DNA from: a phage
Length of the DNA stretch: 64,000 bases
Sequence record: PZ445451.1
Reading direction: 5' to 3' (one strand)
Below the pieces are notes generated by a model. The model searched no databases. It saw nothing but the letters and a program-made list of their open reading frames with translations, and had not been told where the DNA came from. Every line of letters starts with the position of its first letter. Within the stretch, counting starts at the first letter, position 1. A program made the translations under genes and the position numbers. Of this stretch, positions 1 through 2,085 are shown piece by piece.

Positions 1-2085
1 GTGGCAAGGAAACCTGTCAAACAATCTTTTGAAAATGTAGATATTGAAGTTAAAGCCCAACCTGGCAAACAAACATTAGCTATGGATCTTATGCCTGAAG
101 TAATGATTTATGGTGGTGCGGCAGGTTGTGTTTCAGCAGAAACAGAATACCTAACAAGAGACGGTTGGAAACAAATAAGTGAATATGATGGTGAGGATAT
201 TTATCAATACAATCCAAGAAATAAACGTCTTGAATTAGTTACACCATCTTTTGTAGAATACGATGCTAAAGATAATCTGTATTGTATCACAAACGGAGTA
301 GGTGTCTTCCAAGAATTAAGTATGGAACATCGCTTTGTTTTCTACAAGAAGAAAAAATCCAAAAAACATTTTGAAATTCTTGTTGGGGATCTTATTGCAC
401 TACAGCAAGCAGGACACCCATTACGAGGATATATTGAAAACCCTTTTGGTAAACGTGTTCCGTTTAACATTCAAGGTAAACCTAGCACATACCTAAAAAT
501 TCATGAGGTAATGACAAGTGATGATAAGAAATATTGCTTTGAAACTCCAAGCAGTTATGTCGTGTTTAGACGTGGCGATCACATCTTCGTTACTGGGAAT
601 AGCGGCAAAAGCCGTCTGCTACTTCTAAAGGCACTTAAATACGCATATAAAGATCCCCTGTTTGGTGGTATTCTTTTCCGTAAAAATACAACAGCTTTGC
701 GTAAATCTGGTGGTTTGTTTACTGAAGCTAAAAAACTTTATCTACCATTAAAGCCTCACGTAAGAGAACAGGCTATGGAGATGGAGTTCAGAGCCACAAA
801 AGGTGGTACACTTAAATTTGACCATCTTGAAAATGATAACGTAACTGCTGAAACTAACCATCAAGGTACACAGTATTCGATGGTGGGTTTTGACGAACTT
901 ACACATTTTACACAATATGAAATGCTGTATCTGTTAGGGCGTATGCGTTCTGAATCAGAAACGTCTTTTATGCTGTGTACTTGTAACCCTGATGCGGATA
1001 GTTGGGTGTTAAAGTGGGTACTTCCTTATTTGGATGAAGCTGGTTATCCACGAGAAGATATGTGTGGCAAACAGCTATACTTTCTTATTGTGCAAGATGA
1101 ACCAGTATTTGCTGAAACAGCAGAAGAGTTGAAAGAAAAGTATCCTGAAAACTGTTTTATGCAAAACCCAAACACAGGTGAAACAGTGGTTATTGAACCA
1201 CAAACATTTGTGTTCATTGGTGGTACTATCTTTGATAACCCTGAACTAATAAGACTTAACCCTAAATACTTAGCTTCTTTGAAGGCTCAAACTGCCGTTA
1301 AGAGAGCACAGCTTTTAGATGGTTGTTGGTTTGCTCGTGCACAAGAAGAGAGTTTCTTTAACAGAGAATGGTTACACGTTATCAAGTTTAAAGATTTACC
1401 AAACAATCTTAAATATATGCGAGCGTGGGATAAAGCAGTATCTGTTCCAACAGAATCTTATCGTTATCCTGACTACACAACATCTGTTAAAATGGCTAAA
1501 GACTCTGATGGAAATTATTACATTTTTGGTGATTATGATTATGATGCTCACGATGAAGGTAGTAAAATTTTTGGTAGATTCAGAAGACTACCAGGTGATC
1601 GAGATAATTTAATTCTAAACCAATGCAAGATTGATGGAGATGAAGTTACAGTTGTATTACCAAAAGATCCTTCTGGTGCTGGTTTGATTGAATATACAGA
1701 ATCAGCTAAAAAACTAATTGCTGAAGGGTTTGTTGTTAAACCAGACGCTATGCCTGGTAACAAGAAAAAACTACAACGCTTTATGCCATTTAGTAGTGCT
1801 TGTCAAAACGGTTTTGTTTATATTGTAGAAGAATCTTTCCCTAACAAAGAAACTCTTGATCATTTCTATAAAGAGATGGAGTCGTTTAATGGAGAAAGAT
1901 CTACAGCAACATTAAAAGATGATATTCCAGATGCTGCTGCATCTTGCTTTAATACTTTGTCAAAAGAACAGATGTTTAAAGCAGTAGCAATACCTTCTGC
2001 AACAAATGCATTAACAGGGTATGGTAAGATGGGTGGAAGATCAAGAAACTCTTTATCTTCTCCATATAGTATCAGAGGAAGATAA
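1..2085 (+). CDS. terL: Terminase large subunit (ATPase + nuclease), interrupted by a mini-intein; 5' end may lie upstream of the window
   Basis: Walker A GGAAG/SGKS is split by an insertion; Walker B-like MVGFDELTHF; CTCNP motif; acidic C-terminal nuclease region (DDIPDAAASCF); sits immediately upstream of the portal gene. Confidence 0.8.
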   Translation: MARKPVKQSFENVDIEVKAQPGKQTLAMDLMPEVMIYGGAAGCVSAETEYLTRDGWKQISEYDGEDIYQYNPRNKRLELVTPSFVEYDAKDNLYCITNGVGVFQELSMEHRFVFYKKKKSKKHFEILVGDLIALQQAGHPLRGYIENPFGKRVPFNIQGKPSTYLKIHEVMTSDDKKYCFETPSSYVVFRRGDHIFVTGNSGKSRLLLLKALKYAYKDPLFGGILFRKNTTALRKSGGLFTEAKKLYLPLKPHVREQAMEMEFRATKGGTLKFDHLENDNVTAETNHQGTQYSMVGFDELTHFTQYEMLYLLGRMRSESETSFMLCTCNPDADSWVLKWVLPYLDEAGYPREDMCGKQLYFLIVQDEPVFAETAEELKEKYPENCFMQNPNTGETVVIEPQTFVFIGGTIFDNPELIRLNPKYLASLKAQTAVKRAQLLDGCWFARAQEESFFNREWLHVIKFKDLPNNLKYMRAWDKAVSVPTESYRYPDYTTSVKMAKDSDGNYYIFGDYDYDAHDEGSKIFGRFRRLPGDRDNLILNQCKIDGDEVTVVLPKDPSGAGLIEYTESAKKLIAEGFVVKPDAMPGNKKKLQRFMPFSSACQNGFVYIVEESFPNKETLDHFYKEMESFNGERSTATLKDDIPDAAASCFNTLSKEQMFKAVAIPSATNALTGYGKMGGRSRNSLSSPYSIRGR
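127..600 (+). mobile_element. Mini-intein (158 aa, no endonuclease domain) inserted in the terminase P-loop
   Basis: Begins with Cys (CVSAETEYLTRDGW, Hint block A-like); block B-like SMEHRFVF; ends ...HIFVTGN followed by Ser; removing it restores a contiguous Walker A IYGGAAG-SGKS. Confidence 0.7.

What the first reader, a model, noticed from the sequence alone, without database searches (positions are those of the whole stretch)
127..600. The terminase and polymerase inteins share non-canonical features, suggesting a related pair
Both predicted inteins end in TGN (FVTGN|S and ITITGN|C) rather than the usual His-Asn, and both have a block B of the form [ST]xxHR[FW] (SMEHRFVF and TADHRWYV; polymerase intein at 41892-42626). 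Two inteins with the same atypical C-terminal chemistry in one genome suggests common ancestry or intragenomic spread into a second essential gene.
Basis: seen in the sequence. Interest (0 to 1): 0.4.

Follow-up and report, generated by a model that had tools for sequence, protein, structure and literature searches.

The report
Two phage inteins of one widespread family
Both self-splicing protein inserts are real and share the unusual Thr-Gly-Asn ending, but that ending marks a very large, already characterised group of phage inteins, and the two entered this phage separately rather than one copying itself into a second gene.

Summary
The window is Escherichia phage PaulScherrer (Bas60, Justusliebigvirus). 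A 158-aa mini-intein (127-600, +) splits the Walker A motif of the large terminase (GGAAG|…|SGKS). A 245-aa intein (41892-42626, -) sits just after motif A of the family-A DNA polymerase. Both have Cys1, [ST]xxH-R-[F/W], Cys at block F:4 and Thr-Gly-Asn.

The "related pair" reading is not supported. They are 23% identical and score 10.5 bits against each other, while 734 library representatives match the terminase intein at E<=1e-3. All top 150 relatives of the terminase intein, and all 91 relatives of the polymerase intein, end in [TS]-G-N. The features are signatures of a broad clade. Its nearest solved member is the AceL NrdHF intein (6ZGQ). There, Arg B:11 was shown to replace the penultimate His, a Gly-to-His change killed splicing, and Thr G:5 holds His B:10.

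The histories differ:
- The terminase intein has no endonuclease, occurs in about 133 related phage records and co-diverged with its gene.
- The polymerase intein carries a LAGLIDADG-like domain, occurs in only 35 records, and is much younger than its host gene (dS 0.48 against 1.6-2.3).

This is an ordinary biological result with some annotation value: the terminase intein is unannotated and invisible to Pfam and NCBIfam.

The parts
1..126 (+). Large terminase N-extein, ending in the first half of Walker A (…MIYGGAAG).
   Evidence: ORF 1-2085. Annotated as terminase large subunit bas60_0003. Pfam Terminase_6N, E=1e-16.
127..600 (+). Terminase mini-intein, 158 aa, no endonuclease domain. Not annotated in GenBank.
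   Evidence: The family HMM matches protein residues 43-201 at 132.5 bits.
127..129 (+). Cys1 of the terminase intein.
   Evidence: Cys in 149 of 150 relatives.
319..336 (+). Block B, SMEHRF: Ser B:7, His68 B:10, Arg69 B:11, Phe70 B:12.
   Evidence: Across 150 relatives His is in 150, Ser in 129, Arg in 99, and B:12 is hydrophobic (V/I/M/F/L). Coordinates.
532..537 (+). Block F Tyr136-Cys137 (Cys at F:4).
   Evidence: Tyr in 149 of 150 and Cys in 150 of 150 relatives.
592..600 (+). Block G Thr156-Gly157-Asn158.
   Evidence: Across 150 relatives T/S in 150, Gly in 150, Asn in 150.
601..2085 (+). Terminase C-extein. It starts with Ser+1 of SGKS, the second half of Walker A.
42627..44354 (-). DNA polymerase (family A) N-extein. 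It ends …DFDSLEAKIESHY, just after motif A.
41892..42626 (-). Polymerase intein, 245 aa: a splicing domain with an inserted LAGLIDADG-like domain.
42417..42434 (-). Block B, TADHRW: Thr65, His68, Arg69, Trp70.
   Evidence: Thr65 and His68 are invariant and Trp70 is in at least 90% of the 23 aligned family members. Coordinates.
42012..42332 (-). Inserted domain of about 107 aa with a single LAGLIDADG-like motif (FLEGFLIADGY at 42177-42209). Putative homing endonuclease.
   Evidence: AF2 predicts helix-strand-strand-helix-strand-strand. Pfam LAGLIDADG_3 scores only E=0.084. dN/dS is 0.04.
41955..41960 (-). Block F Trp223-Cys224 (Cys at F:4).
   Evidence: Invariant in the family.
41892..41900 (-). 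Block G Thr243-Gly244-Asn245.
   Evidence: The last three residues are [TS]-G-N in all 91 family inteins: TGN in 90 and SGN in one, P0013.
41040..41891 (-). Polymerase C-extein, starting with Cys+1 (CWRYEQ…), through the stop codon.

Best explanation
Both segments are functional inteins from one broad, mostly phage-borne clade. The clade is defined by Cys1, [ST]xxH-[R/K] in block B, an invariant Cys at block F:4, and a Thr/Ser-Gly-Asn C-terminus. They are distant cousins that reached this phage lineage independently.

The terminase intein is an old mini-intein without an endonuclease. It is fixed in the Walker A motif of TerL across Justusliebigvirus and Phapecoctavirus and is inherited vertically.

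The polymerase intein carries a LAGLIDADG-like domain. It is present in only some genomes and has moved between the two genera since they diverged.

Mechanism, inferred by homology to the solved and mutated AceL NrdHF intein: Thr G:5 hydrogen-bonds and positions the catalytic His B:10. Arg B:11 contacts the C-terminal scissile carbonyl and takes over the job of the missing penultimate His in Asn cyclisation. Gly is needed at G:6 because a larger side chain would clash with that Arg. This explains why 'HR' and 'TGN' occur together.

Cys1 is invariant in both families, so I take the first step to be the ordinary class 1 N-S acyl shift at Cys1. This would be followed by transfer to Ser+1 (terminase) or Cys+1 (polymerase), Asn cyclisation and peptide bond formation. 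The role of Cys F:4 is unresolved.

Shown here: the anatomy, boundaries, fold, family conservation and evolutionary histories. Inferred: the splicing chemistry.
For: Identity and boundaries.

HINT fold: AF2 pLDDT 94.9 and 89.3, and the top PDB hits are all inteins. 6ZGQ ranks first for the terminase intein (E=7e-7, TM 0.70) and is the best mini-intein match for the polymerase intein.

Family signatures:
- 734 library representatives match the terminase intein at E<=1e-3. All top 150 have His B:10, Cys F:4, Gly and Asn invariant, T/S at G:5, and Cys1 in 149.
- All 91 polymerase-type inteins begin CV and end in [TS]-G-N. T65, H68, the VWCP block and T-G-N are invariant in the 23 aligned members, and W70 is in at least 90%.
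- Further phage inteins related to either type also end T-[G/S]-N: KIL1 helicase and polymerase, Lederberg RtcB, Gordonia portal and tape measure, and the nieznany polymerase.

Not a pair: 10.5 bits, which is E=3.7e4 at library scale, and 23% identity. All 150 listed relatives are closer to the terminase intein in the N-lobe than the polymerase intein is.

Deep kinship: hhalign 97% probability, E=9e-11. HMM cross-scores are 51.9 and 37.8 bits, against -1 to 15 bits for canonical inteins.

Histories:
- Terminase intein against its extein, PaulScherrer vs ESCO5: 88.0 vs 87.3% amino-acid identity, dS 1.56 vs 1.37-1.96, dN/dS 0.055 vs 0.049. Present in about 133 records.
- Polymerase intein: dS 0.48 vs 1.6-2.3 in the flanking extein, dN/dS 0.02. 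Present in 35 records.

Mechanistic precedent: in AceL NrdHF (S65, H68, R69, M70, C124, T144, G145, N146), G145H abolishes splicing, R69A slows it, and T144 lies 2.6 A from His68 (PMC7891396). This intein matches the terminase-family profile at E=3e-11. Penultimate Gly is functional in a mycobacteriophage class 1 intein (PMC5050341).
Against: - No splicing experiment exists for either intein. Activity is inferred from the phage being viable with an interrupted Walker A and polymerase core, and from purifying selection.
- The nearest solved relative is a proven class 3 intein that uses Cys F:4. Cys F:4 is invariant here, so a class 1 first step is not certain.
- The 6ZGQ sequence match covers only the N-lobe. 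I could not measure distances in the AF2 models.
- The polymerase intein's inserted domain has one LAGLIDADG-like motif and fails the Pfam threshold, so endonuclease activity is unproven.
Confidence: 0.8

Rival explanations
1. One reading: the two inteins are a closely related pair, one having spread within this genome or lineage from one essential gene into the other.
For: They share Cys1, His68-Arg69, Cys F:4 and TGN, and blocks F-G align without gaps. Block A is 39% identical over 31 aa, E=2e-4 for the single comparison.
Against: - 23% identity overall and 10.5 bits.
- Hundreds of closer relatives exist in other proteins.
- All shared features are invariant family characters.
- Neither tblastn search of phage genomes found the partner locus.
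- On each other's family HMM, each scores above that family's median but below its maximum.
- The two have different distributions and ages.
Confidence: 0.03
2. Class 3-type splicing: despite Cys1, the invariant Cys at F:4 is the initiating nucleophile. It would form a block-F branched thioester that is then passed to the +1 residue, as in AceL NrdHF and the mycobacterial DnaB inteins.
For: - Cys F:4 and Thr/Ser G:5 are invariant in both families.
- The polymerase family has the full Trp-Cys-Thr triplet.
- The nearest solved structure and sequence is the experimentally class 3 AceL NrdHF (PMC7891396).
- Tori et al. 2010 list three WCT inteins that keep Ser1 or Cys1, with mechanism then unresolved.
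- One terminase-family member, P0120, has Lys at position 1.
Against: - Cys1 is conserved in 149 of 150 and 91 of 91 relatives. That is unexpected if it were dispensable, since class 3 inteins vary at position 1.
- Block B keeps the class 1 [ST]xxH motif.
- Cys is the second most common residue at F:4 among inteins generally (PMC4031507).
- Class 1 inteins with Cys F:4 were reported as polyphyletic and outside the class 3 clade (PMC3196547).
- The polymerase intein has Cys+1, which is rare in class 3.
Confidence: 0.2
3. Convergence: two unrelated intein lineages independently replaced His-Asn with Gly-Asn and acquired Arg at B:11.
For: The penultimate His has been lost many times in inteins (PMC5050341, PMC7664689). 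Direct pairwise similarity is weak.
Against: - Profile-level homology is well above that to canonical inteins.
- Block B spacing is identical (His68/Arg69) and blocks F-G align without gaps.
- Intermediates such as the Gordonia portal intein score on both family HMMs (47 and 85 bits) and also end TGN.
Confidence: 0.07
4. The terminase insert is a non-splicing domain insertion or a decayed intein.
For: No endonuclease domain is present. No Pfam or NCBIfam intein model matches it.
Against: - It splits the Walker A motif of an essential ATPase in a plaque-forming phage.
- All catalytic positions are intact, and dN/dS is 0.055, as low as in the extein.
- The HINT model is confident.
Confidence: 0.02

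Closest known systems
AceL NrdHF-1-1 split intein (PDB 6ZGQ; Hoffmann et al. 2020, PMC7891396)
   Same: It has Ser B:7, His68, Arg69, a hydrophobic B:12, Cys F:4, a Pro in block F, Thr-Gly-Asn, and Ser+1 as in the terminase intein. It is the best sequence match to the terminase-family profile (E=3e-11) and the best structural match. It supplies the experimental explanation of the HR/TGN coupling.
   Different: It starts with Ala1 and is proven to be class 3, whereas both inteins here keep Cys1. It is naturally split around a GIY-YIG endonuclease gene and sits in a ribonucleotide reductase. Its N-terminal block A differs and it lacks Trp14.
Class 3 'WCT' inteins (MP-Be DnaB, Msm and Mch DnaB-1; PMC2807308, PMC6195587, PMC7664689)
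   Same: Both have Cys F:4 and Thr G:5, and the polymerase intein also has Trp B:12. They are phage-associated, and the terminase intein uses a P-loop insertion site.
   Different: The defining absence of an N-terminal nucleophile is not met. The penultimate residue is Gly rather than His. The terminase intein has Phe at B:12. Structural matches to 6BS8 and 6RIX are much weaker than to 6ZGQ.
Phage class 1 inteins lacking the penultimate His, and TerL ATPase-domain inteins (Kelley et al. 2016, PMC5050341; Novikova et al. 2016, PMC4760082)
   Same: They have Cys1, a penultimate Gly that is functional (Bethlehem RDF intein; G316H slows splicing), and insertion in the terminase ATPase or P-loop. 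Phage inteins are sporadic and horizontally transferred.
   Different: They come from different hosts (actinobacteriophages). The exact P-loop position here is G|SGKS, not K|T. No direct sequence comparison with those inteins was made here.
Endonuclease-bearing inteins such as PI-SceI and TliVMA (PDB 1VDE, 7QSU)
   Same: The polymerase intein has a HINT domain interrupted by a LAGLIDADG-type domain, and these are its top fold matches.
   Different: The inserted domain here is about half the size, with a single LAGLIDADG-like motif, and there is no DNA-recognition region.

Membership tests
Intein (HINT-domain protein-splicing element) | In-frame insertion in a conserved host-protein motif, with intein-less alleles that read straight through. 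| tested here: met
   TerL Walker A. PolA, just after motif A: an exact 735-nt indel.
Intein (HINT-domain protein-splicing element) | HINT fold. | tested here: met
   AF2 pLDDT 94.9 and 89.3. All top Foldseek PDB hits are inteins or Hint domains.
Intein (HINT-domain protein-splicing element) | Nucleophile at position 1, block B His, C-terminal Asn, and Cys/Ser/Thr at +1. | tested here: met
   Terminase intein: C1, H68, N158, S+1. Polymerase intein: C1, H68, N245, C+1.
Intein (HINT-domain protein-splicing element) | Demonstrated protein splicing. | not testable with these tools
   Inferred from phage viability and purifying selection.
Class 1 inteins | Cys, Ser or Thr at position 1, used for the first acyl shift. 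| tested here: met
   The residue is present and conserved in 149 of 150 and 91 of 91 relatives. Its use as the nucleophile was not testable.
Class 1 inteins | Penultimate His (common but not defining). | tested here: not met
   Gly in both inteins and invariant in both families. Functional exceptions are known (PMC5050341).
Class 3 inteins | No Cys, Ser or Thr at position 1. | tested here: not met
   Cys1 in both.
Class 3 inteins | Cys at block F:4. | tested here: met
   C137 and C224, invariant in both families.
Class 3 inteins | Trp at B:12 and Thr at G:5. | tested here: inconclusive
   The polymerase intein has W70 and T243, so both are met. The terminase intein has T156 but F70, and its family has V/I/M/F/L at that position.
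Class 3 inteins | Obligate block-F branched thioester intermediate. | not testable with these tools
   Needs mutagenesis and thiol-decay assays.
Arg-B:11 / Thr-Gly-Asn intein clade (AceL NrdHF-like) | [ST]xxH-[R/K], Cys F:4, and [TS]-G-N with a +1 nucleophile. | tested here: met
   Both inteins and both families. The AceL residues are taken from PMC7891396.
LAGLIDADG homing endonuclease (inserted domain of the polymerase intein) | LAGLIDADG motif or motifs with an acidic residue, in the alpha-beta-beta-alpha-beta-beta-alpha fold. | tested here: inconclusive
   One motif, FLEGFLIADGY. Pfam LAGLIDADG_3 gives E=0.084, below the cut-off. AF2 secondary structure is compatible. dN/dS is 0.04. Activity was not tested.

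The most novel reading that the evidence does not exclude
The two inteins belong to a very large clade that combines class 1 marks (invariant Cys1, [ST]xxH) with class 3 marks (invariant Cys F:4 and Thr G:5, and Trp B:12 in the polymerase branch). Standard intein models in Pfam and NCBIfam missed both inteins tested here. The clade's nearest solved member is a proven class 3 intein. It is not excluded that the clade uses Cys F:4 as a nucleophile despite Cys1. It is also not excluded that AceL-type class 3 splicing arose from inside this clade, independently of the mycobacterial WCT class 3 inteins. Either case would make these coliphage inteins natural class 1/class 3 intermediates in a tractable E. 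coli system.
Probability: 0.2. Interest if true: 0.55.

Novelty: new member of a known kind. Interest (0 to 1): 0.25.

Why it matters
The main value is to annotation and interpretation.

- An essential gene, the large terminase, carries an unannotated intein in about 133 deposited phi92-like and phAPEC8-like genomes. Many of these phages are being developed for therapy. The deposited terminase protein is therefore a precursor, not the working enzyme.
- Pfam and NCBIfam intein models miss both inteins here. Comparative genomics cannot reveal an intein that is fixed in every relative.
- A 2024 paper states that no inteins have been reported in coliphages (PMC11162368). These phages carry up to three.
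- The shared 'odd' residues are a textbook case of a coupled substitution: Arg B:11 in place of the penultimate His. They should not be read as evidence of recent duplication.
- The contrast between a fixed, endonuclease-free intein and a mobile one in the same genome is a neat natural example of the intein life cycle, but it is not new in kind.

Tried and rejected
- Pfam and NCBIfam scans of both inteins found no intein model.
- Single-sequence PDB searches gave only noise.
- The word-indexed protein search with the terminase intein alone returned five near-identical fragments. The exhaustive phmmer search was needed.
- A PDB search with the family's C-lobe consensus did not recover 6ZGQ, whose chain carries the C124A and N146A mutations. 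The C-terminal correspondence to AceL NrdHF therefore rests on the residues given in the paper.
- A palindrome search around the polymerase homing site found nothing beyond chance: at best 7 of 11 positions among 34 centres tested.
- Tori & Perler 2011 and Brace et al. 2010 would state how WCT inteins with an N-terminal nucleophile splice, but neither is held in the library.
- A scan of the whole window with both family HMMs and a motif pattern found no third intein.
- I considered and rejected the GenBank boundary for the polymerase intein, which is shifted by one codon.
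Full report
**What the window is**

Window 1-2100 and 41040-44354 are 100% identical to Escherichia phage PaulScherrer (Bas60, MZ501100.1; record coordinate = window + 675). This is a phi92-like Justusliebigvirus of the subfamily Stephanstirmvirinae. ORF 1-2085 (+) is the large terminase. ORF 41040-44354 (-) is a family-A DNA polymerase that GenBank already labels 'intein-containing'.

**Check of the observation**

The quoted sequences are present at the stated coordinates.

- The terminase segment 127-600 reads CVSAETEY…SMEHRF…KKYCFETPSSYVVFRRGDHIFVTGN|S.
- The polymerase segment 41892-42626 (-) reads CVPMDAQ…TADHRW…DVWCPQTELGTWVMRQKDCITITGN|C.

The boundaries are confirmed independently.

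- Excising the terminase segment rebuilds the Walker A motif GGAAG-SGKS. Intein-less terminase homologues in Klebsiella phage KP13-16, several Aeromonas phages and Vibrio phage K354 align contiguously across the junction.
- Many Justusliebigvirus genomes encode the polymerase with the uninterrupted sequence …IESHYCWRYEQ…. Against VEcB and tuntematon, the insert is an exact 735-nt indel.
- GenBank's intein feature is shifted by one codon (V…C), because both junction codons are TGT.

AlphaFold models built with family alignments are confident (pLDDT 94.9 and 89.3). They match only inteins and Hint domains in the PDB. No other intein is present in the window.

**What the shared features are**

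An exhaustive phmmer search with the terminase intein found 734 cluster representatives at E<=1e-3 and 117 at E<=1e-10. I located the intein in all 150 listed proteins. They show:

- Cys at position 1 in 149.
- A block A consensus CVDxDTE[YF]L, and Trp14 in 149.
- Block B L-S-x-E-H-R-[V/I/M/F/L], with His in 150, Ser in 129 and Arg in 99.
- Block F …Y-C-F-x-V-P-S…, with Tyr in 149 and Cys in 150, and a conserved Arg in 149.
- A C-terminus of [T 119 / S 31]-G(150)-N(150), followed by S, C or T.

Most are 300-340 aa with an inserted domain, and 13 are mini-inteins. Most sit in Walker A at G|[SCT]GK[ST] of very diverse NTPases. Others sit in RtcB-like and other contexts.

The polymerase intein defines a second family. 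I delimited 91 inteins, all beginning CV and all ending in [TS]-G-N followed by S or T. In the 23 aligned members, T65, H68, the VWCP block and T-G-N are invariant, and W70 is in at least 90%. Nearly all lie in a small phage protein at KFDVYP|SAYANGWA or WPSAYA|SGALVKCR. A few lie in other family-A polymerases.

Further phage inteins related to either type end the same way:

| Intein | C-terminus and +1 |
|---|---|
| Pseudomonas phage KIL1 helicase | IFITGN\|T |
| Pseudomonas phage KIL1 polymerase | VTITGN\|C |
| Corynebacterium phage Lederberg RtcB | VFITGN\|C |
| Gordonia portal protein | VYFTGN\|S |
| Gordonia tape measure protein | VVLTSN\|S |

Thr-Gly-Asn and H-[R/K] are therefore clade signatures, not peculiarities of this genome. 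KIL1 shows the same 'one of each type' combination in an unrelated phage.

**Are the two a pair?**

No.

- Over 128 aligned splicing-domain positions they are 23% identical: 19% in the N-lobe and 32.5% in the C-lobe.
- Direct phmmer gives 10.5 bits, which is E=3.7e4 at library scale.
- All 150 listed relatives are closer to the terminase intein in the N-lobe than the polymerase intein is.
- Neither tblastn search of 50,697 phage genomes found the partner locus.

They are nevertheless homologous at a deeper level.

- Profile-profile comparison gives 97% probability and E=9e-11 over the N-lobe.
- The terminase-family HMM scores the polymerase intein at 51.9 bits. The polymerase-family HMM scores the terminase intein at 37.8 bits.
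- Four canonical His-Asn inteins (Npu DnaE, gp41-1, Ssp DnaB mini, Mxe GyrA) score -1 to 15 bits on either model.
- Each intein scores above the median but below the maximum of its own family on the other family's model. Neither is specially close to the other family.

**Different histories**

*Terminase intein.* It occurs in about 133 phage records: at least 99% identical in 56 Justusliebigvirus records and about 87% identical in 77 Phapecoctavirus records. Between PaulScherrer and ESCO5 it has diverged just as its host gene has:

| Measure | Intein | Extein |
|---|---|---|
| Amino-acid identity | 88.0% | 87.3% |
| dS | 1.56 | 1.37-1.96 |
| dN/dS | 0.055 | 0.049 |

This is an old, vertically inherited, selectively maintained mini-intein.

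*Polymerase intein.* It occurs in only 35 records. It is 97.6% identical in protein between genera whose polymerase genes are about 58-88% identical in DNA. Its dS is 0.48, against 1.6-2.3 in the flanking extein. Its dN/dS is 0.02 overall and 0.04 in the inserted domain. In ESCO5, the extein immediately next to the insertion differs more from the intein-less tuntematon allele than the rest of the gene does. That pattern is compatible with co-conversion during homing. So this intein moved between genera after they diverged, and its inserted domain is under selection.

**Mechanism**

The best sequence match in the PDB to the terminase-family profile is 6ZGQ, the AceL NrdHF-1-1 intein (E=3e-11). 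It is also the best structural match.

Hoffmann et al. (PMC7891396) describe its residues as Ala1, Ser65, His68, Arg69, Met70, Cys124 (F:4), Pro128, Thr144, Gly145, Asn146 and Ser+1. This is the same pattern and the same block B numbering as here. They report the following:

- Thr144 lies 2.6 Å from His68 and positions it. The T144A mutant is about ten times slower.
- G145H abolishes activity. Modelling attributed this to a clash with Arg69.
- Arg69 hydrogen-bonds the C-scissile carbonyl (2.5 Å), and R69A slows splicing.

Kelley et al. (PMC5050341) independently report that the penultimate His is poorly conserved in phage class 1 inteins. They also show that a penultimate-Gly intein splices fully and is slowed by a Gly-to-His change.

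AceL NrdHF is class 3, with Ala1 and Cys124 as the nucleophile. Both inteins here keep Cys1, which is conserved in 149 of 150 and 91 of 91 relatives. I therefore favour a class 1 first step.

The invariant Cys F:4 and Thr G:5, and the full Trp-Cys-Thr triplet in the polymerase family, leave a class 3-like route open at about 20%. Tori et al. 2010 noted three WCT inteins with an N-terminal nucleophile whose mechanism was then unresolved. The follow-up paper is not in the library.

**Comparison with what is known, and novelty**

Terminase and P-loop inteins, polymerase inteins, penultimate-Gly inteins and the Arg-for-His compensation are all published (PMC4760082, PMC5050341, PMC7891396).

What appears to be unrecorded is the terminase intein of the phi92-like and phAPEC8-like phages. 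The terminase hits listed are labelled terminase or hypothetical protein, never intein. Pfam and NCBIfam models miss it. The BASEL authors identified inteins by comparative genomics, and that approach cannot reveal an intein present in every relative. A 2024 paper states that inteins have not been reported in coliphages.

**Verdict**

These are new members of a known kind, and the interest is low to moderate.

Noticed in passing
window 41889-42626 (-): GenBank's intein mat_peptide for the polymerase (record 42564-43298, which is window 41889-42623) is shifted one codon relative to the chemically valid boundary. It starts at Val2 and includes Cys+1. Both junction codons are TGT, which makes alignment-based placement ambiguous.
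   Followed up: yes
window 127-600 (+): The terminase intein is not annotated in MZ501100. The terminase hits listed for related records are labelled terminase or hypothetical protein, never intein; two notes hint at a 'terminase with endonuclease'. Pfam-A and NCBIfam detect neither intein.
   Followed up: yes
L008 (phage nieznany NC_052659) polymerase, protein residues ~637-961; the equivalent empty site in the window is KSVKYG|ITYGAQ in the polymerase C-extein: Other Stephanstirmvirinae (nieznany, ukendt, nepoznato, AV126 and the 'Campylobacter' phages A150, A145 and A110a) carry a different 325-aa intein in polymerase motif B: KYG|CVPVDNTE…DHMW…VFC…FITLTGN|CTYGAQ. It has two LAGLIDADG motifs and also ends TGN. 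In nieznany the +1 residue at that site is Cys, where intein-less alleles have Ile. At the PaulScherrer intein site, which is empty in nieznany, the sequence reads HYT|WRY instead of HYC|WRY.
   Followed up: partly
L007 (MG065639.1 'Campylobacter phage A150', a Justusliebigvirus) positions 1324-2299; corresponds to window ~1223-1231: The terminase gene of A150, and by the same two-piece hits A145 and C3, has a 976-bp insertion that is not in frame with TerL. It contains an ORF resembling an HNH homing endonuclease (MKNLDFIGYPHYCATYDGRIF…). This is probably a group I intron or a free-standing endonuclease insertion. It is absent from the window.
   Followed up: partly
window 42012-42332 (-): The domain inserted in the polymerase intein is only about 107 aa, with a single LAGLIDADG-like motif. 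Intein endonucleases usually have two motifs. It is conserved across the family and under strong purifying selection (dN/dS 0.04). If it is active, it would presumably work as a dimer.
   Followed up: partly
proteins P0007-P0010 and P0167-P0254 (metagenomic): The polymerase-type intein family lives mainly in one small, lysine-rich phage protein, at two alternative sites about nine residues apart: KFDVYP|SAYANGWA and WPSAYA|SGALVKCR. One member carries Pfam PF19846.
   Followed up: no
protein P0120, residues ~100-319: One of the 150 terminase-type inteins has Lys instead of Cys at position 1 (…FME|KMSGDTELL…MYCVQVP…VITGN|C) while keeping Cys F:4 and TGN. It may be a class 3-like variant or a decaying intein within the clade.
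   Followed up: no
L011 and L013 (Pseudomonas phage KIL1): An unrelated phage also carries one terminase-type intein (in its primase/helicase, at G|TGKS) and one polymerase-type intein (in its DNA polymerase). Both are annotated as joined CDS rather than as inteins.
   Followed up: partly
phage muut MN850573.1 (hit H177): The polymerase of phage muut is annotated 'putative DNA polymerase, part I', which suggests the gene is split by another element in that phage.
   Followed up: no
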